From Stegostoma tigrinum (Eukaryota), in the NCBI RefSeq assembly GCF_030684315.1, contig NC_081383.1, positions 16,103,942 to 16,167,941 of the forward strand: 64,000 nt of DNA, given 5' to 3'. Made by a program: the position numbers and the translations under genes. Below, in pieces: positions 7,366 to 62,597 of the stretch (position 1 is the stretch's first letter; every line of letters starts with the position of its first letter). The notes beneath the pieces were generated by a model. It worked only from the letters and a program-made list of their open reading frames with translations, searched no databases and had not been told where the DNA came from.

Positions 7366-7689
7366 CGTTGCAGGTTGGCTGCTCCCCTGAACCAGCGTTA
7401 GGCCAAAGCCAGCATTAAGGGCCACTGGTTGCAAGGGTGCACAGCCAACCCGACGTCTTCCTTTCACCTCCAACACAGCACTCTCCTCCCCTCGGTCCAC
7501 AAGAGAGTGGGTCTTTATTTTGTTCCAGATGTAAGCTGGTTCACTGAGCTTGAAGGTTTGTTCCCAGATGTTTTGTCACCATTCTAGGTAACCTCAACAG
7601 TGAGCCTCTGGTGAAGCGATGGTGTTATGTCCCGCTTTCTATTTATCTGTTTAGCTTTCCTTGGGTTGGTGATGTCATTTCCTGCATTG

Positions 7690-9110
7690 GTGATGTCATT
7701 TCCTGTTCTTTTTCTCAGAGGATGGAAGATTGGCTCCAAATCAATGTGTTTGTTGATGGAGTTTCGGTTGGAATGCCATGCTTCTAGGAATTCTCGTGCA
7801 TGTCTCTGTTTGCCTTGTCCTAGGATGGATGTGTTGTCCCAATCAAAGTGGTGTCCTTCCTCATCTGTATGTAAGGATACGAGTGATAGTGGGTCATGTC
7901 ATTTTGTGGCTAGTTGATGTTCATGTATCCTGGTGGCTAGCTTCCTGCCAGTTTGTCCAATGTAGTGTTTGTCACAGTTCTTGCAAGGTATTTTGTAGAT
8001 GACGTTTGTTTTGCTTGTTGTCTGTATAGGGTCTTTTAAGTTCATTAGCTGCTGTTTTAGTGTGTTGGTGGGTTTGTGGGCTACCCTGATGCCAAGGGGT
8101 CCGAGTAGTCTGGCAGTCATTTCGGAAATGTCTTTGATGTAGGGGAGAGTGGTTATGGTTTCTGAGCCTGTTTTGTCTGTTTGTTTGGGTTTATTGCTGA
8201 GGAATCGGCGGACTGTGTTCATAGGGTACCCATTCTTTTTGAATACGCTGTATAGGTGATTTTCTTCTGCTCTTCATAGTTCCTCTGTGCTGCAGTGTGT
8301 GGTGGCTCGTTGGAATAATGTTCTAATGCAGCTTCGTTTGTGGGTGTTGGGATGGTTGCTCCTGTAGCTCAGTATTTGGTCCGTATGTGTTGTTTTCCTG
8401 TAGACGCTGGTTTGAAGTTCCCCATTGACTGTTCGCTCTACTGTGACATCTAGGAATGGCAGTTTGTTGTTGTTTTCCTCCTCTTTTGTGAATGTTATGC
8501 CAGTAAAGGGTATTATTGATGGTCTGGAAGGTTTCCACCGACTTGTTTTGCTTAGTGATGACAAAGGTGTCATCCACATAGCGGACCCAAAGTTTGGGTT
8601 GGATGATTAGCAGAGCTGTTTGTTCGAGTCTCTGCATTACTGCCTCTGCTAAGACCCCTGATATCGGAGATCCCATGGGTGTACCATTGGTTTGTCTGTA
8701 GGTTTTGTTATTGAAAGTGAAGTGGGTGGTGAGGCATAGGTCCACTAGCTTGATGATGTTGTCCTTGCTGATGAGGTTGGTGGTGTCTGGTGTATGTGTC
8801 TTCGGTTCTTCTAATAGTGTAGTCAGTGTTTCTTCGGCCAGGTTGATGTTGATGGATGTGAACAGGGTTGTTACGTCAAAGGAGACCATTATTTCATCCT
8901 CTTCTATCTTGGTGTCTTTGATGGTGTTCAGGAATTCTTGGGTGGAGCGAATGGAGCGGCGGCAGTCTTCTACTAGGTGCTTTAGTCTTTGGTGTAGTTC
9001 CTTGGCTAATCTGTAGGTTGGTGTTCCAGGTAGCGACACTATGGGTCTGAGGGGGGCTCCTGGTTTGTGAATTTTTGGTAGTCCATAGAAGCGTGGTGTG
9101 TTGGATCCAT
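7690..9110 (-). pseudogene. Penelope RT + GIY-YIG endonuclease ORF, 5'-truncated and frameshifted
   Basis: ORF pieces 8323..9363, 8274..8579 and 7899..8222 contain PRFYGLPKIHKPGAPLRPIVS, SFDVTTLFTSI, GTPMGSPISG, WVRYVDD, LPFLDVTV, YRKTTHTDQIL and NVIYKIPCKNCDKHYIGQTGRKLATRIHEH. Confidence 0.9.
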
Positions 9111-9502
9111 CTGGTTCACATCCAATTGAGGAAGGACACCACTTTGATTGGGACAACACATCCTTCCTTGGACAAGCCAAACAGAGACACGCACAAGAAT
9201 TCCTAGAAGCATGGCATTCCAACTGGAACTCCATCAACAAACACATTGATTTGGAGCCAATCTTCCATCCTCTGAGAAAAAGAACAGGAAATGACATCAC
9301 CAGTGCCGGAAATGACATCACCAACCCAAGGAAAGCTAAACAGATAAATAGAAAGCAGGACATAACACCAACACTTCATTGGAGGCTCACTGATGGTGTT
9401 ACGCAACGTCTGAAAACTAACCTTCCAGCTCAGCGAGCAAACTCACATCCCGAACGTCAACCTGAGCTACAAATCTTCTCAAAACTCGCTGTCTATCTCT
9501 CA

Positions 9503-10648: not shown

Positions 10649-11000
10649 TCATAGAATCCTTATAGTGTGGAAGCAGGCATTTGAGTCATCAAGTCCACAC
10701 AGGCCCTCCAAACAGCATCCCATACAGACCCAACCCCCACTCTATCCCTGAAAAGCTGTATTTCCCATGGCTAACCCACTCAGCCCACACATCACTTGAC
10801 ACAAGGGGCAATTTAGTATGGCCTGTCCACCTAACCTGCATGTCTTTGGAAAGTGGGAGGAAACCAGAGCAACTAGAGGAAACCCACGCAGACATGGAAA
10901 GAATGTGCAAATTCCACAAGGATAGTCACCTGAGGGCGGAATTAAACCCAGGTCCCTGCCAATGTGAGGCAACAGTGCTATTCACTGAGTGACCATGCCC
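10649..11000 (-). mobile_element. HE1/V-SINE-like tRNA-derived shark SINE
   Basis: tRNA-like head at the right end (minus strand), central core GGAGGAAACC...GAAACCCACGCAGAC, CR1-type tail at the left. Similar copies at 42431, 45737 and 58315. Confidence 0.8.
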
Positions 11001-13050: not shown

Positions 13051-13266
13051 GAGACAGTACGAACTGCTCTTGCTGGAGAATCTGAGATAACAAGGTGTAG
13101 AGCTGGATGAACACAGCGGGCCAAGCAGCATCAAAGGAGCAGGAAAGCAGATGTTTTGGGTCTGGACCTGTTTCTGAAGAAGAGTCCAGACCCAAAACAT
13201 TAGCTTTCCTGCTCTTCTGATGCTGGTCGGCCTGCTGTGCTCATCCAGCTCTACACCTTGTTATCT
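13051..13266. mobile_element. Short fold-back Penelope (Neptune-family) terminal-repeat insertion
   Basis: Inverted arms ~13085-13167 / 13184-13266; 11-bp TSD AAGTACTAATA (13040-13050, 13267-13277); matches the element end at 51010-51133. Confidence 0.8.
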
Positions 13267-14737
13267 AAGTACTAATACACCAGTTTGAAAAGCTGAATTT
13301 AGGTCAAAATTTTGTTCCACAGTGCTAATCATTATAATTTGAATTTACCTGAATGTGCTAAAGAATTACCAGGCGAAGAAAAAATTACGTGTCCCTTATA
13401 AACAGATGCAGAAATTCGGATATAAGATTAAATGGATCTGTTACGTAAAGGAGGCAATATGGTATCTTTGTGATGCTGGCTCAATAACATAAACTCTGCT
13501 AGTACTAATTGTGCTGCCAATTGGTTGATCAGAATCCCTAAATTGATATTTGCTAACATTGCTGAAAGCTAGCTGCTGAAAGGAAAGATACATTGAGGCT
13601 GCAGTAGCTGAGAAGATGCCCATAATCTGAATCCGACATGGGAAAGACAGAAGAATGTATGAAACTGCAAAAGGTGGGCCACCCACACTTTTCAATGCTG
13701 GCCCAGGTGAAGAAAGTGGAACGGGGACAGATGTCCAATATACTGTCCCAAGTGGGCTGTCCAGACACAAACTGAAATAACAATGGGAACAGTAAGCCAG
13801 CCTGATAATGTCACAATCCTGGCCCCAACGGCTGGATATAGTGTCATAAGAAGTTTAATTACCTCACATGAGTAGTTAGGTCAGTAAGTGCATCTTCAAA
13901 TTCTACCAACTGTGTCATGAGTTTCAGCTGTGACTGAAATTGCCACATTCTTATTACTCACTTAGCAAACATTTGTACCAATCAGAGCTCACATCGAACA
14001 TAGAAGTGGTGCAAAATACAAAGTTTAACACAGCTGTGGACCTCATGCATACACACACAGAAACACACATACAGCCAGCTATGCCACCCAAACCATTTGC
14101 AGAATTCTCACTGACACACATTGCTCTCTTTAGCAGGGAGGAGATAGTGCAGGACTAGAGGCATGAAGAACTAACCAGAGGAGGAAAGGCACATCTGCAT
14201 ATTTAAATGGTCATGAAGCAGATGGTCCTGCTGATTATTATCAAAAGTGCAACTGCAAGCTCAGAGGCTGAAACAACTGAAGGTCACACCTTTTTCCTTA
14301 GTCCTCCTTGGCACATACAATCTACCGCGTCCTCAACCCACAAGCTCTTCCGATTTACAAAGCTGTGGATTGTATATGTACATGATCACCTTACTCTTCC
14401 ATTCCTTCAGGTCAGTCCCCTGTGCCCCACAACTTTATCCTTGTACCTTTGAGCTTTCAGAATGAACAAGTGCAAACTGGTCAGGCAGTGGAGTATGGGG
14501 AGAGTGGTCATGAGAACACACTGCCATTTGATTGCTATCTTTCCTCTCATGGATTGTTAACATTGTTTTGTGGATACTCCAAAAAAAGTGGAGGTGGATA
14601 ACAAGCTGTAGGGAGCACAGGATTGCTGATGTCTGTCAAAGTGACAGCAGTCGTCCCCACAAGCCTACTACTGCTCTGGATGGTCCTTATCCACCAGCTC
14701 AGAGATCATGTTGATGCTCTGTTTGACAGGTCCAAGT

Positions 14738-15705
14738 GCTCCTTTCGGAGAGGTGAGGTGGCCATCTAAGGGTGCACAGATAACGAACTTAAATGTTTCT
14801 TTTTAATTCTGCTTTTAAGTTGAGTTGAGCTAGATTGGCATAAGGGAAAGGTTACAGGGCAGTCCATCAATAAATACAAGCTGCCTACAACCAACAAATT
14901 AAACCCAAATATGACCCTCATGAAGCTTCTTACTTGCAACGTGGCCATCAATAAACAAAGTAGATTTGCGGAAGTTTAAAGAATCCAGATATATCCAGGG
15001 TTGCCTTTTGAGGGAAATTGCAGTCTCTCCAGAGAAGGTCAGCAGCTTTCCAGCAGTCATGCTGCACCCACTGGGTTTGCAATATAAGAAACACTGGCAC
15101 AGCAGGCATACAGATCTGAATTTTTCACAATGAGTGAGATGATCTCCCATTAAGCCAAAAACTACTAGAATACTAATTTTACATGTTCTACCCCTACTAT
15201 TTTGACGATTGAGTGAGAGGGATGGTGGGGAGCTAGCAACAGTTGTAGTTCTCACATCTCCAGCCCACAGAGACACAGTGTCAATGTAAAAGTGCAGATG
15301 CTGCATTCATTCAAACACCACCTTCATCAGTGGGATATCCAAAATACAACTTGCAGGACTTACACTTTGCAGAAAAAGGTATAAATATATCAGACATCTT
15401 TCGAGACATAGAGTACTATTTTGGAGAGGTAACATATTCTTTTGGACATTTTCAGCGGCTCCTTTCGGTGACGTAAGGGGGTCATCTAAGATTGCACTGA
15501 TAATGAACTTAGATGCTTCATTTTAATTTTGCTTTTAAGTTTAGTTGATCTGGATTGACATAAGGAGAAGGTTACAGATCAGTCCATCAATAAATACAAG
15601 CTGTTTACAACAAACAATTTAAACCCAATATGACCCTATCATGAAGCTTCTTATTCGCAATATGGCCATCAATAAACAAAGTGGATTTGTGGAAGTTTAA
15701 AGAAT
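14738..15705 (+). repeat. Two diverged ~247-bp direct repeats (14738-14984, 15458-15705), 720 bp apart
   Basis: Shared blocks GCTCCTTTCGG, CAGTCCATCAATAAATACAAGCTG, ATGAAGCTTCTTA, GGCCATCAATAAACAAAGT and GGAAGTTTAAAGAAT. Confidence 0.85.
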
Positions 15706-16684: not shown

Positions 16685-17107
16685 ATGTTTTGGAGCAGAT
16701 CTGTAACTTGGGTTGTGGGTTTTGATGTTGGTTGGCTCGCCAAGGTGGCTTGTTGTTCCCCTGACGTTTCGTTACCGTGCCTAGTAACATCCTCAGTGCA
16801 GCCTCTGATGAAGTGTCAGTGTGTTTTCCTCGCCTGGTTTTTAAGCTGTGGTGTCTGTTGCGATCGATTGCCTCACTTCCGGGTTTCCTCCGTAGTGGAA
16901 TGTACATTGAACTCGACCCCATATACATTCCACTACGGAGGAAAGCCGGAAGTGAGGCAATCGATCGCAACGGACCCCAGAGTTTAAAAATCAGGCGGGA
17001 AAATACACCAACGCTTCATCAGAGGCTGCACTGAGGATGTTACCAAGCACAGTAATAAAACATCTGCAGATCAACAAACCAGCTCAGTGAGCCAACCAAC
17101 ATCAACA
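16685..17107. mobile_element. Palindromic Penelope pLTR-derived insertion (~185-bp arms)
   Basis: ~16722-16906 is the reverse complement of ~16922-17105. The right arm translates to IELDPIYIPLRRKAG, like the Penelope ORF end IDLEPIFHPLRKRTG. Degenerate TSD TTTCATATATCTA (16672-16684) / TTTCACAAATCTA (17108-17120). Confidence 0.85.
16763..16796 (-). ncRNA. Minimal type I hammerhead ribozyme motif (Penelope type), intact core
   Basis: Minus strand reads CUGAGGA-U-GUUACU-AGGCAC-GGUAAC-GAAA-CGUC: core boxes, 6-bp stem II, palindromic ACGU and GUC cleavage triplet. Stem I pairing is poor in this copy. Confidence 0.7.
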
Positions 17108-18834
17108 TTTCACAAATCTACTCTGTTCGCTGATGGTCATAATCAAGTAAGGAACTTCATAGTAAGGTCGTAAGTATTGATACTCAACCTATTCAGCCAT
17201 GTTAGGGTATACCTCTGGAGCAGGTGAAAATTGAACCTGGGACTTCTGACTCAGGGGTGGGGACATTACCACTATGACATATGAGCACTCAAAACTTTGC
17301 TACGGTCTTATTCAGATTTAAAGTGTCAATGGTAAACAACTTGTATTAATTGACGAATCGCTCTGTAACCTTTTTCCTGATATCAACACAGGGCAATTAA
17401 AACTAAAATCAAAATGAAATAGAGTGACTAAATTCACCATCTTTGCACCCTTGGATTACTTTTCAGATTCTGCGTTGGTCTCAGATCAACCATGATAATG
17501 TAGTGAGGTTAGTTGTTTGCCAACGCTGGCGTTGTTCAACAATTGGTGAAATAGGTACCATCTAAGGAGCATGCAATGACATGTTAACAAATTGACCTTA
17601 GAACGGAGGCCCAAACAAGGAAGTGGTGAATAGCAAGGACCAGGTGGATTTTCTAGTCTGGAACATTGCCATCTAGTTTCTCAGGAGAGGAGGGAAGAAT
17701 CAATGGGCTGCATAGAAAGAGGCAATGTTTGCTAATAATGAGATGAAAATGCACGCAAATGAGGCAGTCACTGCTTATTAACAAGATCACTACTCGTGGC
17801 TGAAATGGTAAGGGGAAATTTGGAACTATTTTCTCAATGTCAAGATTCATATTTTTTCAATCTCAACATATTTTCCACACATTTCTCACTGTTGCCCACC
17901 ATTTAACTGCCAATTAGAAAAGCCTTTAAGAAGTATATGCAAATTTAAAACAAGGCATTTTGAAATTATTGGAAGTCAATGGCCGGGAAATCTGGGACAG
18001 ATACATAAAGAATAGCTGATTCCAGTATCTCCTAAAGCCAATATTATTGTCACTAAGCAAGCTGAAATATGAAATTTTACGACATACCAAATGATTTCCC
18101 AAGCAATTTTCTGCCACAATAGCTGTGTCCCTACCTCTAAGCCTGGAGGCACAGGTTAAATTCCCACATGCTCCAAAAGTATGCAAAAAACTAAGCAGGT
18201 TGAATGGACAATGCACAGAAGGTTGATGGGGAATGGTAAGCAAACAAGGATCTACAAATAAGCAGGCATATTGATATCAAGTTCTTTGGACTATTACTTA
18301 CTTTAATTCATGAGGTTAATGCCTTTATTGGAAAAGTAATAAAAAAATTACAATAATTTATTTATTTTTATTAATGCCAAACAAAACATGGCTTCAACTG
18401 AGATATCCTTGACAATTGTAGATAATTCAAATGTAAAACTAAATTAAAGCAATAGCTCGGAATGTCCTGGGTCACACTTCAGCTCTGCCAATGCAACTGT
18501 GCTTCAATGGGCTTCTGGCCCGGTCCAGCAAAATCACAGAGGTGAGGTGGGAATATCTCTGAGGAAATACCTGGACACTTTTTATTTGAAACATAAAACA
18601 TCACAAACCCTCCAGCTTCACCATCCCCTTCCCTGACCCCACCATCACTGATGTTGCAAGTTGCCCTTGTCCCATACAACCCCCATTGTATCATGATCTC
18701 TTTTTAACTTTGGTTGAAAGTGGTGTTAAAAGATGGTATTCATTTTTAGCCCAGCATGTAGATTTTCTGAACAAATGTGGAGCAGTTTTGAATCCTGTTA
18801 AACAAAGGTATTAAGGGATATGGGCCAGAGGCAG

Positions 18835-23549: not shown

Positions 23550-23680
23550 ACAGCAACAAAAACAAAATTGCTGGAAAAGCTCAGCAGCATGTGAAGGAAA
23601 AAACAGAGTTAACGTTTCGGGTCCAGTGGCCCTTCCTTAGAACCTTAGTTTTTGTTCCTAATTTACAGCATCCATAGTTC
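23550..23680 (-). mobile_element. Penelope terminal-repeat fragment with decayed hammerhead (23611-23640)
   Basis: Minus strand CUAAGGA-A-GGGCC-ACU-GGACCC-GAAACGUU, with flanks similar to 35490-35695. Confidence 0.55.
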
Positions 23681-28470: not shown

Positions 28471-29189
28471 TCATGTGGCAACTGGCTTTGGTTCACAAAA
28501 CACATAATTCATTTCTTGAAATGTTGTTTTGCAGAGAGAAGCAAGTACTCTGCTAAATGTATCCATTGCCAGTAGATTTACAATGTAAAATACCTATCTG
28601 GCTGAACATGGAAAAGCATAATGTTAACATTTATTACTTTTTGTGTGAGTGTTTTTGTTAGCAACTGCCAGTAAATTGGTATTATCCCACTATAATAGTC
28701 TAGAAGTAATCTTATAGAAAGATACTGACGAAATTCAGGTTCACAATAATGTCATATAAACTATGGGAAACATATGACTCATACTTTCAAACTACTTGGT
28801 TGGATATCTCCACTAATGCAAGATAATTGGCATTTGTCTCAATATGTAGCAGTGTTATATTTTGTAATGTATAAAAAATACATATATATACTTAGACTGA
28901 AAGCAATAAAAGTGAGAACTATGCTCTTTCATTTTCAGCTAGCAAGGTATTTTTCAAATTAAATATACCTGTGGATACATTTTGCAAAGTCCTTGCTTCT
29001 TTCTGCAACATAACGTCAAGAAACGTCTTATGCATTTTGTGAATTTCGAAGAGAGCACTGCAACATAATTAACAGTAATCCTTACTGTTTATAGTAGCAA
29101 TTCTGTACTAATGACAAGTGCATCAAAGATGGTGACAGGATAGAACTTTCCAGCCAGAGCTGCTGTGTTCTGCCCTTTATATTTCCTGT

Positions 29190-30200: not shown

Positions 30201-30334
30201 ATAGAGGATAGATATAGATACAAAATAAGTGTTAATGTTTGATGGGAATCATCTAAAATACGTCAGTTTCCCATGCAAACAAAGCATGGGCGGATGAGGG
30301 TGGCGATCAAAGCGGAGGACAGTGTTCATGCTTT

Positions 30335-30930: not shown

Positions 30931-33139
30931 AAAAAACCCTTTGTCTTGTGCTCTGGCACATTCACCATTTGTTTCATTAACACCTCCTCCCATTTTGTCA
31001 ACAGTATAGAAACCATAATTTTCAAGTCCTCTTTCATTCCAAACAAGAGAGTTATTTTGGACTTGAAACTTTAACTCTATTTCTTGCAACACAGATACTG
31101 TTAGATCTGTTGAGTTTCTCCAGCACTTTCAGGTTTAATTTCAGATTTCTGGCATCAGCATACTTTACTTTTATTTCAGGGACAAAAATCAGGGCACCAG
31201 TGATGCTCCCGCTGGCCCAGATGCTCGACACAGAGAGCCGCTGAGAGCCCCATTCCCTGGTTACTGAACTGGGAATCCAGGATTTTGATTGTGACAATAT
31301 GTATATTAAGTGGGTTAGTCGGTCACTTAGTGTTATATCTGAATTATGGTGGTCAGTGCCGGTTGGCTGCTCACCAAGGTAGGTATTATTTTTGAGTCAG
31401 GCTCTGGCCTCCCTTGGATCAAGTGTGGTAACCCTGTCCATTCTTTGCCCTTTCTAATGCAATTCTGACATTCATTATAAAATCCTTTCTACAGCTCAGA
31501 CTGAAATTGTCTGACTAATATCACTGTACAGATGAAATTTGGAACTACCTAGACTGTATGGTATAGGTGTTTATGAGATAAACTTACTGTGCTGTCAGGC
31601 TGTCTTAAAGATATCTTACTGAATAATTTATGGTTACATCAGAAAACAGAATTGGCTGTTCTCTCTACCAGCTCTTATGAATAATGTCTTTTTTTGTATA
31701 GGAATTACAACACAGACAAAGAATATTTGGTCTGTCACCCTCCGTGATGGTAGACTTCAGATGAAGTGAACTACTACAGTCTTACCTCTCTGCCTTTTGC
31801 CGTTGTCCTTTTTAATTCTTACATTTTCAAATAATTTCCACTCCAACACATTTCGGAAGATTAAAGCTCATTGATACCAATGCGTGTAAAAACTGTAGAG
31901 CAAAGCTTTAGTATACTGACATCTGCTCAGAGTTGGCAAGGTGCTAAGCTACTCAAAATTTGCTCAACATTTCTGTACCTCGGTAGCTAGTTATGCGAAA
32001 GCATTCCTTATCCTAAAAACCCTCTCTGCAAGAATATTATCTCCAACATTTTTCCTTCATTCTAATCATAATCCTAACGATCCATTTACAGGACAAGGTC
32101 ATCAAGATTTGGAACTACATTGGACTTTTCTAGTCCCTGCCTTGGGACTGTTTGATAACATCTCTATGCAGAAAGAGTAAATGACAAATGCTGCAGTATT
32201 ATCGACTTTCCTCGCAGGAGCCACACAAGATGGGAGTAACCAAGCTAGATGCTGAATGTGAATTAATAGTTGATATCATTGAGACAGCTTTTAATGGGTC
32301 ATCTGTTGCAAACAGTTGGTTGACCATTCACTTCTACAACCTTGCGTACAATAAAATGACATCCAGTTTCTATCAGTTCTTTTAATAGATCTATACATAG
32401 CCCATGGATAATTGTACATCATCATTAATTTTCCTCTCTAAATTATAAATGACCTGATTTGTTTTATTTGTACATCATGTCAGTATTAATCTGACTCAGT
32501 GGGTAATCAACTCCTGTATCAGAAGGGTACATGTTTGTTTCCAAAATATGTTATGATAACACAATGGCGGGTGGGATATAGGGATCTGCGGTGATAATGT
32601 CAGTGTCACCCTTCACTAGATAAATGATTAAGCTGAAGTCTCATCTATTCATTCAGGTAATCAAATAATATTGACGATCTCATTGCTGTATTCAAAGAAC
32701 TGTCAGTTCTGCTGGGAAGAAAAGTAACTTTCAGCCTTTATACCAACATCAGAATTAGTTCTGAAGAAGTGTCATATTGGACTTGGAATGTTAATTCTGT
32801 TTCACTGTCTGCAGTGCTGCCACACATAGTGAGTTTCCCTGGCATTTTCAATTTCAATTTCAGAAACAGATCCAACCTGGTCAATTACCTCCTTGTGAAT
32901 TGTGGGATTCCTCTTTTGAAATGGTTTCCGATCTCACCTGCCAAATAGTCACTTCACTGGAATGTAAGTGTGTGGACATGGTTCTGTGGCATGTGATATG
33001 ACACTACAAGATAGGGAAAATTTTCTTGACTCCTGTACCCTGGAGAATGTCATATTTCTCTGGGTACAAACCCCAGGTTGCCAGCTCTTTTTATATACCC
33101 TCTGATTTGTAGAGTTTTCTGGCACAAGTTATGAACCGA

Positions 33140-35483: not shown

Positions 35484-35698
35484 AAAGAAAAGACAAAGAA
35501 CTGCAGATGCTGTAAATCAGAAACAAAAATGGAAATTGCTGGAAAAAACTCAGCAGGTCTGACAACATCTGTGGACAGAAAGTAGACTGAGTGTTTCAGG
35601 TCCAGATCAGAAGAAGTGTCACTGGACCAGAAACATTAATTCTGCTTTCTCTCCTCACCTGCTGCCAGGACTGCTGGGACTTTCCAGCAATTTCTCTC
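35484..35698. mobile_element. Older fold-back Penelope terminal-repeat insertion
   Basis: Imperfect inverted arms (GAAATTGCTGGAAA ... TTTCCAGCAATTTC); decayed hammerhead at 35608-35637; flanking CAATATGA duplication (35476-35483, 35699-35706). Confidence 0.6.
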
Positions 35699-42430: not shown

Positions 42431-42743
42431 TATAGAATCCCTACAGTGTGGAAACAGGCCCTTCAGCCCAACAAGTCGACACGACCCTCAGTGCATCCCA
42501 CCTAGACACATTCCCCAAACCCATCTAACCTACACATCTCTGAACACCATGAGGCAATTTAGCGTGGCCAATCCACCTAGACTACACATCTTTGGACTGT
42601 CAGAGAAAAGCAGAATTTCAGAGGGGACAAACTCTGACACAGGGAGAACATGCAAACTCCACACAGACAATTGCCCAAGGGGGAATAGAACCTAGGCCCG
42701 TGGTGATGTGAGGCAGCAGTGCTAGCCACTGGGCCACTGTGCC
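42431..42743 (-). mobile_element. HE1/V-SINE-like SINE
   Basis: Homologous to 10649-11000. Confidence 0.8.
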
Positions 42744-44819
42744 ACCTGTTAACATGCTGTCTGCAAGTGGCTGAGGTACTGCCATGGAGAAAGCAGGCTT
42801 TCCGTGCTTCTGGGTTATTCAAAACATAGTGGAAATTTTGGATATATTAATTGTATTTGCAGAAATTAGGCAGAAATTGTTAGTGCCACTTTAGCACAAA
42901 TGGGATTGTTCAGCAATGCATAATTACAGTTAACAGTAGACTTCTTTTTTTGAGTTCAGCAAACAGAGACTAGTTCAAAGCACTCTGTACTCTACCCATT
43001 ATGAAAAGTGCCAGAAATGTTCAATTTAATCAACAAATTTCTGGGCTATCTGGTGCACAACATTAGCATCAAATTAGCACTGAAATGCCTACTTCTTGAA
43101 GTGACCACCGCAAATATGAAAGCAAGATTAAGTTAATCCCATTCTATTGGTCTTCTCTATCATGGCTGATGTGCAACACTATCTATCCATCTTGGATTCA
43201 TAACCCTTAATATATTTACTGAATTAAAAAAACTCTCAGTTTTGAGAATTTAATTGATGCACCATCCATATCCATTTAGGGAGAATTTCAGAATTCCACT
43301 TCCCTATAAAAGGAAAAAAAATGTTTGTTGATTTCAGCCCAGAATGGTCATACTTTAATTTTAAGATTGCTTTCCCTTGTTCTGTATTTCCACCAGAGAA
43401 TATAATTTCTTTCTATTTGCTCTATCAAACTCCTCTGAAATTTTAAATGAATTAATTAGATCTTCCTTCAACCATTCAACCTGAAGTGAATATAAATTGA
43501 CTCTGTACCATGGATTCCCATAACCTAACTTAGCCGAAAACAGGAAGCTGTGTGTATCATCCCCATTTTTCACTGAGATTTATTCCAAAGGCCAGGAAAA
43601 CCTGAACTGATGACAGGACTGGCATGGATGCCAGGCAAGGCTTTTGGCAGGTAAAGGAGGCTTTGAAGGTTAACCTTAAGTGTCTGACCACTTATATTGT
43701 GATAGTAATTCCAGGGCTGTCTGGATTTACATTTATGAACATTCATTTGTTTTCTACGAAACAAAGTTCAGGTTGCGCTTTGTGTCTTTTGGAAGGAGTC
43801 CTCTCACAGCCATTAGAAGAAGTTAATCTCAAAGAGAAGCATCTTAACCTCTAACTGATATTTGTCATGCATTGCAAATGGTAACAGTCTTGTAGAAATT
43901 GAGAACATACCTCACAGTGGTAGGAAATCTAACTCTTCACATGCTCAAGTTCTGTGCTTGAAAGAATGTTAACACTTGTTACACAAAACAATCTGACAGA
44001 TCAGCAAATGGACAATTTTGTCCAAAAATGAAATGGCAGTGAACAATATTTCCTACATGTGGTAATCCCTGTTTAAGTCATAAATATTTGTATAATTTGC
44101 CCAACAGAAGGAGTGAAACTAATAAAGATTAAATGTTTCTGTTTTCTCTAAACTTTGTTCTAAAACCCAGAGCTATTTGTAACCTTATTATTGAAGGAAA
44201 CAACAGTAAATGCTGAATATCATTGCTTATAAAACAGCATATTTAGTCTACTATCATCTTTGTGATCCATATTGCTTCTGTCCTAAAAGAGGAGTTTTTG
44301 TTTCTGATTCTGGCAAGACTCTTCCACTGCAACCATCTAAACCAATGGTACTTCTGTCAATGCCCAATTAGTTTTCCTCTTCCTAAGCTGTTCAGGGAAA
44401 GCCACAAGTACGCTAGTTCATCATTCTTCTGCAAGCTTAGAGCATGGGCAAATTCAGTTGTGCTCTATAATAACTTAGATCTTCATAAAGCCCTCCTTAT
44501 AAACTGTCTATAAGGAGGACAGTTTTGCTTGTCTGTTTCCTTTCTTTGTTAACTCCCGTGATGGCAAATTTGCTCCCATCATGAGTTTCACTGTGAAGCC
44601 AATGCCAACACAGGACAGAATTTGGAAGATTTGGATTCAGACTAACAACTCTGTTCCGTGGGTCCATTCTTTTGGTATGTTCTGGGCTAAATCTTAATTT
44701 TTGTGCTTTTATTTTCAGACTGAGCTATTCAGTATTCTGCCAGACACACTGTCATAACCATGTAAAAATATAGACTATTGATCTTTGAATTCCATAAGCC
44801 AATTTTGTGTTTAGGATTT

Positions 44820-45055: not shown

Positions 45056-45736
45056 ACCATTGGCCATGTTTGGAATGCATTGCCTAAAAGGGTAGTAGAA
45101 GCTGATTCAAATAAGATTTGAATATCCATTGGAAAGGAAATGTGGGGCATAGCACTCCGAAAGAACTGTCACCAGTATGATGGGACAAATGATTTCATGC
45201 AGTGCTGAATGGTTCAGTACTGTCACTTGTGGCAGCGAACCAGTCAGTTTAGCTGAAAGTGTGTGCTGAATGTGGAGAAGTTCCAACTTGGAGCTCAGAT
45301 ACCTACTCGCACCACCATAATTCCAGTGAATAGTAGCCATTTGGATAAGTTAGTGGCAACAACTGGCAAGCATTGTATTGTATGGAAAGAATGAATGAAA
45401 GAACTTGCATTTATGTAGTGTTGTTTACAACCTAAGGACATTCCAAAGCACTTTAAAGCCAATAAAGTATTTTTGAAGTCAATTCAATGTTGCCATGTTG
45501 GAAGCAAGACCCTTCAGCATCGATTTGTTGTAATGGTAACTTTTTAACATTCCTATTATGTTATGAGGATTATTTCATCAACAATTTATTTAATCAAGCT
45601 TCGCTTAAATAAGTGGCATTGTCAAGGCTGCATCACATGTAAACTAATCTTGTGCAAAGTTTCTGATACAGCCTGTCTTATGGTTAATATCTAGCCTTGT
45701 ATTACTTAGGGAGACCACCCATATCATTGCCAAGAT

Positions 45737-46080
45737 CATAGAATCTACAGTGTGGAAGCAGGCCATTCAACCCATCGAGTCCACACCAACCCTCTGAAGA
45801 GCATCTTACTCAGACCCACCCCCTATCTTATCCCTGTGATCCTGCATTTCCCATGGCTAATCCACCTAGCCGGCACATCCCTGGATACTATGGGCAATTT
45901 AGCATGGTGAATCTACCCTAACCTACTCATCTTTGGACTGTGGGAGGAAAGCAGAGAAACCCACACAGACACAAGGTGAATGTGTAAGCACCACACAAAC
46001 AGTTGCCCAAAGGCAGGATCAAACCCGGATCCCTGGTGTTTTGAGACAGCAGAGCTGACCAACGAGCCACCTTGTCACCC
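45737..46080 (-). mobile_element. HE1/V-SINE-like SINE
   Basis: Homologous to 10649-11000. Confidence 0.8.
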
Positions 46081-46779
46081 AATTTAACGAAAGAGTTAAG
46101 TCCTTAAGTCCTTAATATTTTTACAAATCCTTAAACTGGAACTTTGAAATGTCTTTATGCAGTGTGTCCCTTAGCCGACATAAATAGTGACGTACCTGGG
46201 CCATGTCACTATTGAAAACTTATTTGAAATCAAAAGAGGCCTTTTAAGAAAACCCAACTAATTTCTGCAATAAACCAGAAGTACCTTGGTTTCCTACAGA
46301 GATAATAAGTAAATCTTTTAATCATTTAGTGGCATATTATTTTTATAATAGTTGGAATGCTGCTACCCCTTTGAGAAAGTGGATCAGCAAAGCCTTGTAT
46401 GTTTATGAAATACCTCACAGACTGGAAATAATTTCTGACCATTAAAAAGCAATGTCTCCAGAAAGAATTGGAAATATGTCCCACCCACTGTCTCTCAAAA
46501 CAAATTTTTGTAACCATGGGTCCAATTTCAAGAATCACTGTGCACTAATATAGCTAAATTTCTTTTGGGAAGCTACAACAGACATGTTCTCTTACATGAC
46601 CCAGGAGACACACATATTCATAATCTGCACCAATGAATGACACATAAACAAAATAAACTGTGTCACATTGAGATCTAATGTGTAATGCTCGATTTAAATG
46701 GAGGATACAGGAGAGTGAGTGGCACTATCAATCACCTCAACAGCGCTAAAGAAGAGAAAATCATCAAGATATTGATTGT

Positions 46780-47765: not shown

Positions 47766-49606
47766 ACTTCAATGTGTAACGTTTACAGGACATAATTGTA
47801 AATAGTGTAACTTTACATTTCTTCTGTATTTTGATTGTGGACTGAAATGGGAAAAGGACTGCTTTAAAAACCAAGAATTGTGGAAAAGAGTTGTTCCTCA
47901 TTTCAAAAGCCAATGACCAACACTTGTTATTGTAATAACAGCCCATGAATTAATATTTTTCTTTAAAAATTGGAGACAGAAAAGAAAAATAGCCAATTAG
48001 ATTGAACACGAATGTAGCGCCTGTACTCATGGAATCACAGCCTCACATCAGAGGGGAGCATCAGGAGAAAAAACGTGGTCTATTGCAAATAAGGTACAAA
48101 TTTGTTAGCATATACACACAACTGGTGTTCTACCCACCCGAGGTACGCAAACCATGAGACCATAAGACCATAAGACATAGGAGTGGAAGTAAGGCCATTT
48201 GGCCCATCGGGTCCACTCCGCCATTTACCATGGCTGATGGGCATTTCAACTCCACTTCCCTGCACTCTGCCCGCAGCCCTTGATTCCTTGTGCGATAAAG
48301 AATTTATCAATCTCTGCCTTGAAGACATTTAACGTCCCGGCCTCCACTGCACTCCGTGGCAATGAATTCCACAGGCCCACCACTCTCTGGCTGAAGAAAT
48401 ATCTCCTCATTTCCATTTTAAATTTACCCCCTCTAATTCTAAGGCTGTGCCCACAGGTCCTTGTCTCCCCGCCTAACGGAAACAACTTCTCAGCGTCCAC
48501 CCTTTCTAAGCCATACATTATCTTGTAAGTTTCTATTAGATCTCTCCTCAACCTTCTAAACTCTAATGAATACTATCCCAGGATCCTCAGCCGTTCATCA
48601 TACGTTAAACTTACCATTCCAGGGATTATCCGTGTGAATCTCCGCTGGACACGCTCCAGCGTCAGTATGTCCTTTCTGAGGTGTGAGGCCCAAAACTGGA
48701 CATAGTATTCTAAATGGGGCCTCTCTAGAGCTTTATAAAGTCTCAGAAGTACATCGCTGCTTTTATATTCCAACCGTCTTGAGATAAACGACAACATTAC
48801 ATTCGCTTTCTTAATCACAGACGCAACCTGCAAGTTAACCTTTAGAGAATCCTGGACCAACACTCCCAGATCCCTTTGTACTTCTGCTTTATGACTTTTC
48901 TCACTGTTTAGAAAATAGTCCATGCCTGTTTTCTTTTTACCAAAGTGCAAGACCTTGCATTTGCTCACGTTGAATTTCATCCGCCATTTCCTGGACCACT
49001 TTCCTAAACTGTCTAAATCTTTCTGCAGCCTCCCTACCTCCTCAGTACTACCTGCCTGTCCACCTATCTTCATATCATCAGCAAACTTCGCCAGAATGCC
49101 CCCAGTCCCTTCATCCAGATCATTAATATATAAAGTGAACAGCTGCGGCCCCAACACTGAACCCTGTGGACACCAATTGTCACTGGTTGCCATTCCGAAA
49201 AAGAGCCTTTTATCCCAACTCTCTGCTTTCTGTCAGACAGCCAATCCTCAATCCAAGCCAGTAGCTCACCTCGAACACCATGGGCCCTCACCTTACTCAG
49301 CAGCCTCCCGTGAGGCACCTTATCAAAAGCCTTTTGAAAGTCTAGGTAGATAACATCCATTGGGTTTCCCTGGTCTAACCTACTTGCTACCTCTTCAAAG
49401 AATTCTAACAGGTTGGCCAGGCACAACCTCCCCTTACTAAATCCATGCTGACTTGTTCTAATCCGACCCTGCACTTGCAAGAATTTAGAAATCTCATCCT
49501 TAACAATGGATTCTAGAATTTTACCAACTACCAAGGTTAGGCTAATCGGTCTATAATTTTTCATCTTTTGTCTTGATCCTTTCTTAAACAAGGGGGTTAC
49601 AACAGC

Positions 49607-51135
49607 TGACATGTCATCTGAGGAATGGGAGGGGGAGTTGAAATGGCTTGTGACTGGGAGGTGCAGTTGTTTGTTGCGAACCGAGCGGAGGTGTTCTGCA
49701 AAGTGGACTTCACAAGCTTCAAAATCTCACCTTCCCCCACAGCATCCCAAAACCAGCCCAGTTCGTCCCCTCCCCTCACTGCATCCAAAACCAGCACAGC
49801 CTGTCTCTGCGTCCCTAACCTGTTCTTCCTCTCACCCATCCCTTCCTCCCACCTCAAGCCGCACCTCCCTTTCCTACCTACCACCTCATCCCGCCTCCTT
49901 GACATCCCAGATGTCCACGTTCTTCAAGGACCGCAACTTTCCCCTTGCAGTGGTCGAGAACGCCCTTGACCGCGTCTCCTGCATTTCCTGCAACACATCC
50001 CTCACACCCCACCCCCTCCACAACCGCCCCCAGAGGATCCCCTCGTTCTCACATACCACCCCACTAACTTCCGGATGCAACGTATCATCCTCTGACACTT
50101 CCGCCATCTACAATCCAACCCCACCACCCAAGACATTTTTCCATCCCCACCCTTGTCTGCCTTCTGGAGAGACCACTCTCTCCACGACTCCCTTGTCCGC
50201 TCCACACTCCCCTCCAACCCCACCACACTCGGCACCTTCCCCTGCAACCACAGGAAGTGCTACACTTGCCCCCACACCTCCTCCCTCACCCCCATCGCAG
50301 GCCCCAAGATGACCTTCCATATTAAGCACAGGTTCACCTGCACATCTGCTATTGTGGTATATTGTATCCATTGTACCCGGTGTGGCTTCCTCTACATTGG
50401 GGAAACCAAGCAGAAGCTTGGGGACCGCTTTGCAGAACACCTCCTCTCGGTTCGCAACAAACAACTGCACCTCCCAGTCGCAAACCATTTTAACTCCCCC
50501 TCCCCTTCTTTAGACAACATGTCCAACATGGGCCTCCTCTAGTGCCACAATGATGCCACCCGAAGGTTGCAAGAACAGCAACTCATTTTCCGCTTGGGAA
50601 CCCTGCAGCCCAATGGTATCAATGTGGATTTCACAAGCTTCAATATCTCCCCTTCCCCCACTGCATCCCAAAACCAGCCCAGTTCTTCCCCTCCCCCCAC
50701 TGCATCACAAAACTAGCCCAGCTTGTCCCCTCCCCCCACTGCATCCCAAAACCAGTCCAGCCTGTCTCTGCTTCCCTAACCTGTTCTTCCTCTCACCTAT
50801 CCCTTCCTCCCACCTCAAGCCGCACCTCCATTTCCTACTTACCATCTCATCCCACCTCCTTGACCTGTCCATCTTCCCTGGACTGACCTATCCCCTCCCT
50901 ACCTCCCCACCTATACTCCCCTCTCTACCTATCTTCTTTTCTCTCCATCTTCGGTCCGCCTCCCCCTCTCTCCCTATTTATTTCAGTTCCCTCTCCCCAT
51001 CCCCCTCTCTGATGAAGGGTCTAGGCCCGAAACATCAGCTTTTGTGCTCCTGAGATGCTGCTTGGCCTGTTGTGTTCATCCAGCTCCACACTTTGTTACC
51101 TTGGATTCTCCAGCATCTGCAATTCCCATTATCAT
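49607..51135 (+). mobile_element. Neptune-type Penelope-like element, 5'-truncated and rearranged
   Basis: 12-bp TSD GGTTACAACAGC (49595-49606, 51136-51147). ORF 50153..50542 has the CNHRKCYTC linker and the GIY-YIG motif VVYCIHCTRCGFLYIGETKQKLGDRFAEH. Short inverted 5' piece and partial duplicated pLTR. Confidence 0.9.
51009..51036 (+). ncRNA. Minimal hammerhead ribozyme motif in the Neptune pLTR
   Basis: CUGAUGA-A-GGGU-CUAG-GCCC-GAAA-CAUC (CpG-decayed form of CGUC). Confidence 0.65.
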
Positions 51136-57465: not shown

Positions 57466-57815
57466 AATTGAAAATTTTCAGGTCAATGCATTCTAATATT
57501 TAAAGAAATCTGTAGCTTGGTTTGGTAAGTCTGCTTTAGGCCAATTTGAAATTTGTGGAATCATGTTTGGCATAGCAAAGCTTTGAACCCAGAAATGTGT
57601 AATGCAGAGGCAGGAGTACTGTCAACTTAGCTACAACTCTGTATTGTTGAATATGGGTTTTGGGATCCTGGAATAAACTTGTGATGATGTCATAGAGCTG
57701 CATATCACTGAGTATAAATAGCACTGTGCGGGTGGAGTTAGATCAGTCCACGCCCAGATACTCTGGAATGAGAGAGAGTTATGAGGGCAATTGGACACAA
57801 ACACACAAAAAGAAA

Positions 57816-57886
57816 CCTTCCAGCTCAGCGAGCAAACTCACATCCAGAACCTCAACCTGAGCTACAAATCTTCTCAAAGCTCGCTA
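57816..57886 (+). mobile_element. ~70-bp extreme 3' end of the Penelope/Poseidon family seen at 9421-9490
   Basis: Near-identical to 9421-9490; 13-bp TSD ACACAAAAAGAAA (57803-57815, 57887-57899). Confidence 0.85.
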
Positions 57887-58314: not shown

Positions 58315-58890
58315 TAAGAATCACAACAACATGGAAGCAGGCCATTAAGCTCACACCAATCCTCCAAAGGGCATCCCTCCCAGACACACACTATCCCTGT
58401 AACCCTGCATTTCTCATGGCTATTCCACCTAGCTTGCACATTCCTGGGCACAATGGGGCAATTTAGCATGACCAATCCACCTAGCCTGCACATCTCTGGG
58501 CACAATGGGGCAATTTAGCATGACCAATTCACCTAACGTGCACATCCCTGGGCACAATGGGGTAATTTAGCATGACCAATCCGCCTAATGTGCACATCCC
58601 TGGGCACAATGGGGTAATTTAGCAAGACCAATCCACCTAACATGCACATCCCTGGGCACTATGGGACAATTTAGCATGACTAATCGACCTAACCTGCACA
58701 TCCCTGGTCACTATGGGGCAATTTAGCATGACCAATCCACCTAACCTGCACACATTTGGACTGTGGTAGGAAAGCCACATAAACACAGGGAGAACATGCA
58801 AACTCCACACAGATGATCACCCAAGGTTGGAGTTGAACCCAGGTCCCTGGTATCGTGAGGCAGCAGCACTAACCACTGAGCCACCATGCC
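58315..58890 (-). mobile_element. HE1/V-SINE-like SINE with internal 52-bp tandem expansion
   Basis: SINE homologous to 45737-46080; unit starts at 58425, 58477, 58529, 58581, 58633, 58685 and 58737. Confidence 0.85.
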
Positions 58891-59369: not shown

Positions 59370-59605
59370 GATAATGGGAACTGCAGGTGCTGGAGTATCC
59401 AAGATAACAAAGTGTGGAGCTGGATGAACACAGCAGGCCAAGCAACATCTTAGGAGCACAAAATCTGATGTTTCAGGCCTAGACCCTTCATCAGACCAGG
59501 GGGATGGGGAGGGAGGAAGGTAACGTCTTCAGGTTAGGCATCCCTGGAAGGTGCTTCGCAGTGAGGTTAAAATTGTATCAGAGATAATGGGAACTGCAGA
59601 TGCTG
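59370..59605 (-). mobile_element. Neptune pLTR fragment in partial tandem arrangement, hammerhead motif at 59467-59494
   Basis: GATAATGGGAACTGCAGRTGCTG occurs at both ends (59370, 59582); minus-strand CUGAUGA-A-GGGUCUAGGCCU-GAAACAUC. Confidence 0.75.
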
Positions 59606-62569
59606 TCTTTTGTTTGTTTTCTTCAAGTGTTGCCACTTTCTTTGATTTTTGTACCATGAAAGTTTTTATCACTTGACCCCTCTTTCTCTCTAAACTATTG
59701 TATAACTTTTCTTTCATTCTTCCTCCCTTCTAGCTTTCAAAACCTCCCACCTCACCCAGTATCTTTTTCTCAGATTTGATGTAGTTTCAGTGTACTGAAA
59801 CATTGTACAGTATTGAACATAGGCAAATGGAGCCTTGCTCACCAGCAGAAGCCAGTGAGACCTCCACCTCATCTCCTCTGCAGAGTGCCCACTGATATTA
59901 AGGGCTTCTCTGGCACTTAACTGGACAGCAAAAGGTCTTCCCGAGGGAGTGCTGGCCAATAACAGACCAATGGCCGTCCATGGCAAGATGCATCTCTGGG
60001 GAATCATTGGCAGCTTTTGGAAATGTGTTACATGGTACTTCCTTTAGAAACAGGAATAATGCACAGATAAATAAGTAGTAAATCTAAACAGGAATACTTT
60101 ACTGGTGATGCGCACATATCCACAGCCAGTTCTATACTCCTCCCAAGCTCTGACCATCCAGGTCACCAGCTCTTTTGAAGGGGCAGCACCCCCAACTACA
60201 TGCATAACATAATGCATCCACCACTGGGCCCAGGATCAGTGAGGGATTTGACCCTCAGGTGTTTGAGGGTGGGAAGGGGTTGTCATAGGTGATATATTGG
60301 GGACAGGGGAGGGAGATTAACAGCAAGGGCAGGGGTGAATCTCACCAGACACCCCTCCTCTTCCTGATGTTGGGTCACTTGACCAAATACTAAGTTAACT
60401 GAGAGACAGCTAGCCAGTGGAGATAAGCTATAATCAGAAGGTTGGAGGTGTGAGGAAATTGTGTAGGACATCAGGTGTATAGAAAATGAGAGACCAGCAG
60501 GTGGACTCCTGAGCACTCAGGTCTGGAAATATTATAAATTCAACCTGCGACTTTTATATCCAAAAATAATTCAAAATTAAATTAGCTTTAACAAAACAAA
60601 ACTGACATCAAATGCAAAACATTTGTGCCCTAAATAAAAGCTGAGATTTACCTTACAAAATTCACCAGGAAATTGGTGAGCCACCCAGGTCAGATAGGTT
60701 GATGTGCAAACATTGGCCACTTAAACAATGTCACAAAGATGCCTGAAGCTGCAAAGACCATAACCCTTCAAGGACTCAATGTATTCTGCATGCGAGAAAA
60801 TTGTCTGAAGATAACGATTACCTTGTGGTCTCAGGCATGATTTATGCAGCAGGATTATCACATCACCAATTGCATCAGTATGCCTTGCTCAAGAGACAGG
60901 AAAGTGTGTTTCAAGAGATGCTGTTGTGGTGAACGAGCCCATTTAACTGATCCAGCTATTAATAGTTCTACACTAACCTTGCCAGTGCTTTTTCAATCAT
61001 TATTTTGCAATACTTTTATCAAGCTGTCCAGCACAGCATAAACTGCAAGAAGGATATCAGAGCTCACTCAAAATATGCAAGTATAAATGATCAAGTAGGA
61101 ATCTGACCATTCTAAACAGTGACCCTGAAGTTAGCCATTTATGAACTATGCAATGGCTTCAAGGAGGTTATATTTCAAAAACAGACAACTGCAAATGACC
61201 ATGGACTTACTGTGACTGATGTAGTGTGCCAGGCAAGCTCAGCATGAGAATGCTGATCACTAATCACAATCTGTTTGTTATTGATAGAAAGAATCTGTTC
61301 TTCTATGGAAGAAAAAGAATGCAGAGCCCAAAATATGCTGTCCTGTTTTCTACTGCATTGAAAACAAGCAGTGTGAATCTTTAGTTAAGCTTTGGGGGAC
61401 AAGAGCAGCATTTCTAAAATGCACTTCCAGCTACCTAGTTTCACAATAAAGAAGAAACATACATTCTTCCGCTCAGTTAATAAACTCGTAAATGAGGTTC
61501 CAAAGCTGTGTGGTGGTGAAAGATGTCAATTAGAGTAATCTTGGTGCATTTGTATCAATAAATGCTTGAACACTCTGTAAGCAACTAACAAGCCACTCAA
61601 CAAAGCTTGCATTTACATAACTATTGGAAATGCTTATAGTTTGGTTCATTCAGTTGTGATGTAGTAGACCTGAGAAGAATATTCACTGGTAACTTTCAAA
61701 AGGGAATTGGGTAAATGCTTGAACGGGAACCATTAAAAAGCCATGGAGAGAGAACAGGGAAGACGGACTAATTGGATAGTTCTTTCAGAGAAACAAAACA
61801 ATCAATGATGAACCTCATTCTGTGTTGTGTCATTCTATGTGCCGCTTTTAGTGGAAACAACTGAATATCTAATGAAAATCAAAGGCAACTTTAACAATAC
61901 TCAATAATGAAGAGAAAGGAGAACAGGGCAAGTATGGTTCTCAAATAAGCAAAGGACGTGATAATATGTTTTTAATAGAATGAATTCTTTCCCAATGATA
62001 ATTCAGAGGCAGTGAGAAGACCAGAAGAGAGTATGATGTGAGTATGGCAACGAAAGGGCAGTAATCACCGACTCTAAATGCAAAAGATAGTTGGAGTTGT
62101 TAGAAGCTGCAAGCAAACACCATTAACAAGAGAAATATTAGCTGGAAAATAGCAGATATACAGCAACTTGAAATTATGTTATGGGGAAAGAGGGAATAAA
62201 CTGCATGAGGCAATTTATATGTACCAATTCACTAAGCAGCTCAGTCTGCATTCCTAATCAGCTTAAAGCAAATCTGCTTTATAAAAAGCAAGTACAATAT
62301 AAACCGGGTGTTGTTTCCCATCACGTGTAGCAGCATAATCTATGTGAGAAAGCTGTTATTGATTTTCTTTCTCTACAGGTTTAGTTTGTGATATGTTGGT
62401 TTGACAGAGTTTGGGAGGAGTGGAAAATCTGTTGATTTATATAGCAATCAGGTTTCTTATCATTTTGTTCCTTACCAAGTATGTCCTGAAAGCTTTTAGA
62501 TCCTTGATAACAAAGTGTGGAGCTAGATGAACACAGCAGGCCAAGCAGCATCTCAGGAGCACAAAAGCT

Positions 62570-62597
62570 GACGTTTCGGGCCCAGACCCTTCATCAG
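62570..62597 (-). ncRNA. Minimal hammerhead ribozyme motif, intact core, in Neptune pLTR fragment (~62506-62597)
   Basis: Minus strand CUGAUGA-A-GGGU-CUGG-GCCC-GAAA-CGUC. The element is truncated just upstream, so stem I is weak. Confidence 0.7.

What the first reader, a model, noticed from the sequence alone, without database searches (positions are those of the whole stretch)
7567..62597. Dispersed set of ~10 minimal hammerhead ribozyme motifs from several Penelope families
Seen: CUGANGA-[stem II]-GAAAC(G/A)UH cores at 16763-16796(-), 62570-62597(-), 51009-51036(+) and 59467-59494(-); decayed copies at 7567-7600(-), ~9390-9410(+), 13174-13201(+), 17031-17064(+), 23611-23640(-), 32761-32792(+) and 35608-35637(+). 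Stem II differs completely between families (GUUACY/GGUAAC vs GGGU/GCCC) but keeps its pairing. Established: Penelope-like elements encode minimal type I hammerheads whose palindromic helix III (here ACGU) allows dimeric cleavage. Inference: at roughly one motif per 6 kb, mostly in ORF-less pieces, this genome may hold a very large retrozyme-like pool able to cut host pre-mRNAs or pair in trans. This is the best candidate for an under-described system in the window.
Basis: partly seen in the sequence, partly recalled or inferred. Interest (0 to 1): 0.7.

Follow-up and report, generated by a model that had tools for sequence, protein, structure and literature searches.

The report
Penelope hammerheads: mostly dead, rarely cut
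These motifs are the known minimal self-cutting "hammerhead" RNAs at the ends of Penelope jumping genes, present here in over 100,000 dispersed and steadily decaying copies with no sign of being purged from host introns, while a small excess of copies that begin exactly at the predicted cut site likely records occasional real cutting of the element's own RNA.

Summary
The motifs are real (4 strict hits versus 0.03 in shuffles), but none of the 11 listed copies is intact, and 7567-7600 is a Tx1-LINE junction chimera. They are the known minimal type I hammerheads of Neptune- and Poseidon-type Penelope-like elements. One family has 109,495 exact core copies in 3.2 Gb, likely because reverse transcription starts about 65-105 nt downstream of the ribozyme, so even the shortest insertions carry it. 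Against host pre-mRNA cutting: intact copies in introns of eight genes lie 27 sense to 35 antisense (p=0.37). Catalytic positions decay at 0.98% per site versus 1.35% in flanks. 137 of 241 copies sit in head-to-head pairs. Retrozyme-like mini-elements exist, about 2% of copies. 98 of 99 sampled young copies read through the cut site, and 5' ends pile up at the ribozyme's 5' edge. A small cut-site excess is real: 40 of 50 listed foldbacks centre there versus 2 at a matched control. This scan reported that cut-site signal before on other DNA of this genome. No RNA data were available.

The parts
16763..16796 (-). Family B2 minimal hammerhead; core, 6-bp stem II and ACGU palindrome intact, helix I broken (0 bp)
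17031..17064 (+). Family B2 hammerhead, inverted partner of 16763; 5-bp helix I, G12 and palindrome lost
16722..17105 (.). Head-to-head (tail-out) Penelope insertion holding both B2 motifs; transcript predicted 85% paired
62570..62597 (-). Family A (Neptune-type) hammerhead; core intact, helix I 0 bp because the insertion starts about 4 nt upstream
62500..62601 (-). About 100-bp family A insertion: ribozyme plus tail to the first 3' end site; typical shortest product
51009..51036 (+). Family A hammerhead at the 3' end of a Neptune-type remnant; palindrome lost (ACAU), 2-bp helix I
49931..51133 (+). 5'-truncated family A element: GIY-YIG frame 50096-50542 with a Cx4CxxC linker, pLTR, ribozyme and tail to the second 3' end site (left limit is that of my query, not mapped)
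59467..59494 (-). Family A hammerhead, palindrome lost, helix I 1 bp
59370..59605 (-). Internal-deletion mini-element of family A (tail and ORF start joined back to the pLTR; tail repeated at both ends): the only retrozyme-like unit in the window, a monomer
7567..7600 (-). Chimeric motif: 5' half of a family B ribozyme plus the diverged leader of a Tx1-type LINE
2193..2248 (-). Displaced 3' half and tail of the same family B ribozyme, behind the LINE's A-rich 3' end
2250..7580 (-). Tx1-type LINE (zinc-knuckle ORF1, endonuclease-RT ORF2) inserted in the family B ribozyme; ends approximate
7581..9490 (.). Poseidon-type Penelope remnant: broken RT (8323-9123) and GIY-YIG (7899-8273) on minus, inverted short arm 9118-9490 on plus
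9377..9410 (+). Family B1 hammerhead with an internal deletion of about 13 nt; cannot form the core
13174..13201 (+). Older family A hammerhead, G12 and palindrome lost, inside palindrome 13082-13269 (source of the weak MIR6457 match)
23611..23640 (-). Family C motif, G5 mutated, 4-bp helix I; Penelope origin inferred from tail likeness
32761..32792 (+). Strongly decayed motif, likely family C-related; no BLAST partner in the window
35608..35637 (+). Decayed family C motif within inverted insertion 35482-35694
62794..62920 (.). Family A tail-only palindrome without ribozyme
57808..57885 (+). Family B tail-only fragment, starting about 8 nt after the cut site

Best explanation
The motifs are the minimal type I hammerheads of Neptune- and Poseidon-type Penelope-like retroelements, copied into more than 100,000 dispersed, mostly short or back-to-back insertions that decay after insertion and are likely inert, while the ribozyme likely cuts only a small share of the element's own germ-line RNA. 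Shown: family A copies end at two fixed 3' sites (+88-100 and +124-135 from C3), so any insertion over about 100 bp carries the motif; a third of young copies begin within 10 nt of the ribozyme's 5' edge; over half are head-to-head; almost all read through the cut site; a small excess begins exactly at it. Inferred: the two 3' sites are the internal reverse-transcription starts known from the anole element; the 5'-edge pile-up marks the RNA's 5' end; head-to-head pairs come from priming on both strands of one DNA cut; cutting needs the element's protein and a partner RNA; template jumps create mini-elements that are re-mobilised in trans.
For: Linked RT and GIY-YIG remnants. Full-length anatomy pLTR-ribozyme-tail-ORF in loci L226, L229. 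3' ends: 51 at site 1 and 59 at site 2 of 115 young copies. 172,964 matches to the ribozyme 3' half, 3,570 to the ORF start, 62 to a segment 60 nt further in. 137 of 241 copies head-to-head. 5' ends: 39 of 115 at -10..+10, 0.022-0.024 per nt against about 0.003 on both sides; 1 of 99 at the cut. Decay: 11/539 core versus 62/4263 flank changes, p=0.27; genome-wide +4.9% versus +6.8% when five catalytic or five flank positions are relaxed. Introns: 27 sense, 35 antisense. Cut-site excess: 40 of the first 50 of 992 foldbacks centre on the four bases after the cut, 2 on the equally long palindrome 5 nt upstream; 8 clean junctions at +29 against a mean of 1.2 at +20..+36, p=3e-5. Cross-family compensation in helices I and II. 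Anole element: ribozyme protein-assisted, uncut RNA the main substrate (PMC11167929).
Against: Catalytic positions are 28% less mutated than the chosen flank positions, which fits selection on source elements but also some selection on copies or site-specific rates. The intron test only excludes a strong purge (95% interval for the sense share 0.31-0.57). The +29 peak comes mainly from loci picked for the ORF start (5 of 8); the unbiased 1.46 Mb has 1 of 156, and family B has 0 of 38. Positions +18, +37 and +38 reach 7-9 calls; about half of those are older-subfamily mismatches, the rest true junctions. Family B shows no pile-up at its ribozyme's 5' edge. No RNA or cleavage data.
Confidence: 0.8

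Rival explanations
1. One reading: the dispersed motifs are a large retrozyme-like pool that cuts host pre-mRNAs or pairs in trans.
For: Sheer number; 62 of 103 descriptor hits in 1.2 Mb of introns are intact; sense share is slightly under half (27:35; solo 13:19); mini-elements with two or three direct ribozymes exist.
Against: No significant orientation bias; 0 of 11 window copies intact; monomers predicted to fold into an inactive hairpin, -11.4 versus -3.6 kcal/mol for the catalytic-like fold; head-to-head copies predicted 75-97% self-paired; 3 direct pairs under 3 kb among 55 core-intact copies; single min-HHRs showed no cleavage in vitro (PMC4209133) and 8 of 9 Xenopus dimers none (bioRxiv 2026.07.22.740005).
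Confidence: 0.07
2. The ribozymes never cut in vivo; the +29 excess comes from joining at the AGCT microhomology or from pausing of reverse transcriptase at stem II.
For: AGCT is self-complementary; family A helix I is only 2 bp in 56 of 64 copies; no peak in the unbiased sample or in family B; no read ends at the cut site in anole.
Against: The matched ACGT palindrome is used 20 times less; several +29 junctions join unrelated sequence bluntly or with added A's (L132, L219, L265); core invariant across families with compensating helices.
Confidence: 0.25
3. The pile-up of 5' ends at the ribozyme's 5' edge reflects stalling or strand switching at the C-rich tract upstream (G-rich cDNA), not a transcription start.
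For: The tract begins directly upstream of C3 in family A; family B, which lacks it, has no such pile-up; 25 of the 39 junctions are inversions.
Against: No junction at -30..-11 (0 of 54) inside the tract, and 14 non-inverted junctions also fall in the window.
Confidence: 0.35

Closest known systems
Minimal hammerheads (min-HHR) of metazoan Penelope-like elements (Cervera and de la Pena 2014, PMC4209133; parts 1-2 of 4 and passages of supplement file 2 read)
   Same: CUGANGAH core with an extra nucleotide, G10.1-C11.1 or G-U pair, palindromic 15.2-16.2, location in pLTRs, several families per genome, mostly dispersed single motifs, opposite-strand pairs.
   Different: Family A has a 2-bp helix I and so fails their descriptor (minimum 3 bp), though 2-bp cases are noted for Drosophila virilis. 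109,495 copies of one family against about 4,000 (coelacanth) and 9,000 (Xenopus). No shark term in supplement file 2; file 1 could not be searched.
Poseidon element PAc of Anolis carolinensis (Frangieh et al. 2024, PMC11167929; parts 1-2 of 4 read)
   Same: Two internal 3' end sites defining a tail, ribozyme near the ORF start, uncut RNA as the main template.
   Different: In family A the ORF starts about 170 nt after C3, not in stem II. They found no read ends at the cut site; here a small excess of genomic junctions lies there.
Metazoan non-LTR retrozymes (Cervera and de la Pena 2020, PMC7229834, passages; Li, Clavereau, Pollet 2026, bioRxiv 10.64898/2026.07.22.740005, parts 1-3 of 5)
   Same: Non-coding 200-700-nt units derived from Penelope ends, sometimes dimers or trimers with a ribozyme per unit (331-nt L146/L217, 422-nt L238); Li et al. 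include one chondrichthyan with 363-bp average units.
   Different: The window has no tandem array; the ribozymes are minimal, not canonical; such units are about 2% of family A; no circular RNA shown. Axolotl has 126,247 motifs in a 28-Gb genome, about 8 times lower density.
Inverted-pLTR insertions of endonuclease-positive Penelope-like elements (Craig et al. 2021, PMC8557442, passages)
   Same: 5'-truncated copies with an inverted copy at the 5' end, 30-40-bp tail, Neptune Cx2-5CxxC linker.
   Different: Here the inversion points concentrate at the ribozyme's 5' edge in family A, which the passages read do not mention.

Membership tests
Penelope min-HHR | CUGANGA ... GAAANNUH core | tested here: met
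   Family majorities A, B1, B2, C; only 4 of 11 window copies keep it
Penelope min-HHR | Helix II of 3-7 bp with an extra 5' nucleotide, compensated between families | tested here: met
   4 bp (A), 5 bp (C), 6 bp (B) with different pairs
Penelope min-HHR | Palindromic 15.1-16.1 | tested here: met
   ACGU in all family majorities; kept in 3 of 10 scored window copies
Penelope min-HHR | Helix I of at least 3 bp (2014 descriptor) | tested here: inconclusive
   Met for B1 (3 bp), B2 (up to 5), C (4); not met for A: 2 bp in 56 of 64, 3 or more in 2 of 64
Penelope min-HHR | Location in the pLTR of an RT/GIY-YIG element | tested here: met
   Families A and B; family C not linked to an ORF here
Penelope min-HHR | Self-cleavage as a dimer or with protein help | not testable with these tools
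   Only indirect junction evidence
Penelope-like elements (EN+) | Tail with two 3' end sites and inverted 5'-truncated partner | tested here: met
   110 of 115 young copies end at two sites; 137 of 241 head-to-head
Non-LTR retrozymes | Tandem repeats with a complete ribozyme in two or more consecutive units | tested here: not met
   No such array in the window; met at a few loci elsewhere (L146, L238)
Non-LTR retrozymes | Non-coding 150-450-nt unit that spreads to new loci | tested here: inconclusive
   One 331-nt junction at 8 places on 5 contigs; the window's 59370-59605 is a monomeric unit whose spread was not counted
Non-LTR retrozymes | Abundant linear and circular RNA monomers | not testable with these tools
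   No RNA holder listed

The most novel reading that the evidence does not exclude
The genome is a fossil record of the Penelope RNA life cycle at nucleotide resolution: a third of insertions mark the RNA's 5' end at the ribozyme's edge, hundreds mark true hammerhead cleavage in the germ line by a ribozyme with only a 2-bp helix I, and cut RNAs are rejoined or jumped onto to give birth to thousands of retrozyme-like mini-elements.
Probability: 0.4. Interest if true: 0.65.

Novelty: new member of a known kind. Interest (0 to 1): 0.42.

Why it matters
Whether Penelope hammerheads cut in living cells is open: the 2014 paper saw weak activity in vitro, the 2024 anole study found no RNA ends at the cut site, and Craig et al. 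suggest the ribozymes may only parasitise the elements. A family with over 100,000 copies makes rare events countable, and names a substrate for a direct assay. It also shows that about 34 intact-looking cores per Mb can sit in a vertebrate genome without strong purging from introns, and that descriptor searches needing a 3-bp helix I would miss this family. The motif class itself is known.

Tried and rejected
Strand runs in the listing (23 plus-strand hits in a row) looked like intron purging; rejected as a listing artefact, since one search lists 100 plus-strand places while genome counts are balanced. Rfam scan: no hammerhead model hit; MIR6457 and mir-448 matches are the palindromic insertions. 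Sequencing runs: no RNA holder listed; no reads were laid. Splicing as the source of the 331-nt junction or of the 5' pile-up: rejected, the junction has microhomology rather than GT-AG ends and no junction lies at the candidate acceptor at -22. My first reading, 'no signal at the cut site', was revised after the earlier notes prompted. Control repeats in introns were also unbiased (43:46 and 20:20), so the test has no positive control. Foldback counts at other palindromes, a family C count and a larger intron sample were not obtained. Whether the window lies in a gene was not determined (T/A skew near 0). Literature searches found no paper on shark Penelope hammerheads or on genomic junctions at the cut site beyond those cited; the library lacks most subscription journals, and the bioRxiv supplement with the chondrichthyan counts and figure S2 of PMC11167929 could not be seen.
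Full report
Observation. The listed stretches are present. A strict descriptor (CUGANGA, stem II of 4 bp or more, GAAANNUH) finds 4 motifs in the window against 0.03 in shuffles, and 101 in 1.2 Mb elsewhere against 1 shuffled and 0 reversed. None of the 11 copies is complete (for the copy at 9377). 16763 and 62570 lack helix I, 51009 and 59467 have lost the ACGU palindrome by a CpG change, six have a core mismatch, and 9377 has a deletion. The 7567-7600 motif is a chimera: a Tx1-type LINE sits inside a family B ribozyme. Four other fetched loci share its 5' junction and three its 3' junction; this lead came from earlier notes.

What carries the motifs. Family A follows a GIY-YIG frame with a Cx4CxxC linker, the Neptune signature given in PMC8557442 (passages). 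Family B follows an RT and GIY-YIG without that linker, which I read as Poseidon type; no tree was built. Family C is older and was not linked to an ORF. Family majorities keep the core and ACGU while helices I and II change in compensating pairs, so the structure was selected in the source elements. Family A has only a 2-bp helix I (56 of 64 core-intact copies), below the 3-bp minimum of the 2014 descriptor.

Numbers. Exact cores: 109,495 for family A and 8,556 for family B in 3.2 Gb, reversed controls 0. In 1.264 Mb, 241 tail-bearing family A copies were found, 146 spanning the ribozyme, 56 with core intact, 46 also with helix I. The ribozyme's 3' half has 172,964 matches, the ORF start 3,570, and a segment 60 nt further in 62. 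Published counts: about 4,000 in coelacanth and 9,000 in Xenopus (PMC4209133), 126,247 canonical motifs in axolotl (PMC7229834, passages).

Why so many. Of 115 young copies (edge-touching and older-subfamily hits dropped from 267), 51 end at +88-100 and 59 at +124-135 from C3. This matches the two internal reverse-transcription starts shown for the anole element (PMC11167929), so the motif rides on almost every insertion. 137 of 241 copies are in head-to-head pairs, a known Penelope arrangement. 39 of 115 5' ends fall at -10..+10, seven to eight times the rate on either side, and 25 of these are inversions. I infer that this marks the RNA's 5' end; stalling at the C-rich tract is a live rival, and family B shows no such pile-up.

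Are the copies kept functional? In 49 long young copies, non-CpG core positions differ at 11 of 539 and flanks at 62 of 4263 (p=0.27). Genome-wide, relaxing five catalytic positions adds 8,465 copies (0.98% per site) and relaxing five flank positions adds 11,688 (1.35%). The core is therefore not protected; the 28% gap may reflect selection on source elements, site-specific rates or weak selection on copies. Folding predicts an inactive hairpin in which CUGA pairs with UCAG (-11.4 against -3.6 kcal/mol), and 75-97% self-pairing for the window's four palindromes.

Do they cut host pre-mRNA? I sampled 1.2 Mb inside eight genes found by Pfam glypican and vinculin/alpha-catenin searches (the gene labels are mine, from recall). 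All eight show the T-over-A skew expected on the assumed sense strand. Intact motifs lie 27 sense to 35 antisense (p=0.37, sense share 0.31-0.57), solo ones 13 to 19; control repeats are also balanced. A strong purge is excluded, a mild one is not, and the test lacks a positive control. Penelope elements are reported as common in whale shark introns (bioRxiv 443036, passages).

Retrozyme-like units. No tandem ribozyme array lies in the window. Of 30 loci holding the ORF start, 24 jump back to the pLTR or tail, 3 continue as long copies and 3 are unresolved, giving about 2,900 mini-elements, or 2% of family A; 6 of the 30 have two direct ribozymes. One 331-nt junction recurs at 8 places on 5 contigs, with dimers, and L238 is a 422-nt trimer. 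The window's 59370-59605 is a monomer of this kind. Li et al. 2026 already derive animal retrozymes from Penelope ends and include one chondrichthyan.

Does the ribozyme ever cut? 98 of 99 young copies read through the cut site, so uncut RNA is the main template, as in anole. Earlier notes of this scan claimed a pile-up at the cut, so I tested it. Of 992 symmetric foldbacks with a centre of up to 14 nt, 40 of the first 50 listed centre on AGCT, the four bases after the cut, and 2 on ACGT five bases upstream: about 790, under 1% of copies. Leaving out those loci, 8 clean junctions lie at +29 against a mean of 1.2 at +20..+36 (p=3e-5); some are blunt or carry added A's. Against: 5 of the 8 come from ORF-start loci, the unbiased 1.46 Mb has 1 of 156, family B has 0 of 38, and +18, +37 and +38 reach 7-9 calls, partly through older-subfamily mismatches. 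I put real but rare cutting at about 0.65.

Verdict. A new, very large member of a known class. What remains of interest is the junction record of the RNA's ends, part of which this scan reported before on other DNA. Papers were read only as stated under Closest known systems; supplements not seen may hold shark counts.

Noticed in passing
window 2250-7580 (-): Tx1-type LINE inserted in a family B ribozyme, with a diverged copy of the target's downstream half as its leader; same junctions at L111, L294, L302, L311 (5') and L110, L294, L301 (3').
   Followed up: partly
L146:1230-1895 (-); L211-L218: 331-nt family A mini-element with one shared junction at 8 places on 5 contigs, including two dimers; candidate for a cleavage assay.
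   Followed up: partly
L238; G000:C1:49657966-49658718; L274 and L275: 422-nt and 362-nt trimers of mini-elements; two loci 54 kb apart share one junction. Many jumps land at about -87, a microhomology hot spot.
   Followed up: partly
L219, L264, L265 (centre): Mini-elements whose ORF-start segment is joined exactly to the first base after the cut site, one with added A's; would fit circularised or template-jumped cut RNA.
   Followed up: partly
window 58424-58752 (+): 52-bp tandem (6.3 copies) inside a SINE/LINE-type repeat also at 10650-11000, 42518-42746 and 45736-46081; recalled as the shark HE1/HER1 3' end, not tested.
   Followed up: no
window 29328-29918 (+): 32-bp minisatellite, about 14 copies, with long open frames on both strands.
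   Followed up: no
window 48246-49726 (-): CR1-type RT remnant abutting an inverted piece of the family A element (49608-49720 against 50413-50523).
   Followed up: no
window 14718-15705, 17298-17459, 28492-29043: Unclassified direct and inverted repeats without a hammerhead core.
   Followed up: no
window 16797-16812 and 7601-7616: Family B carries CUUCRUCRG about 8-16 nt upstream of the core, complementary to CUGAUGAAG-like sequence; a possible off-switch hairpin, not tested.
   Followed up: no
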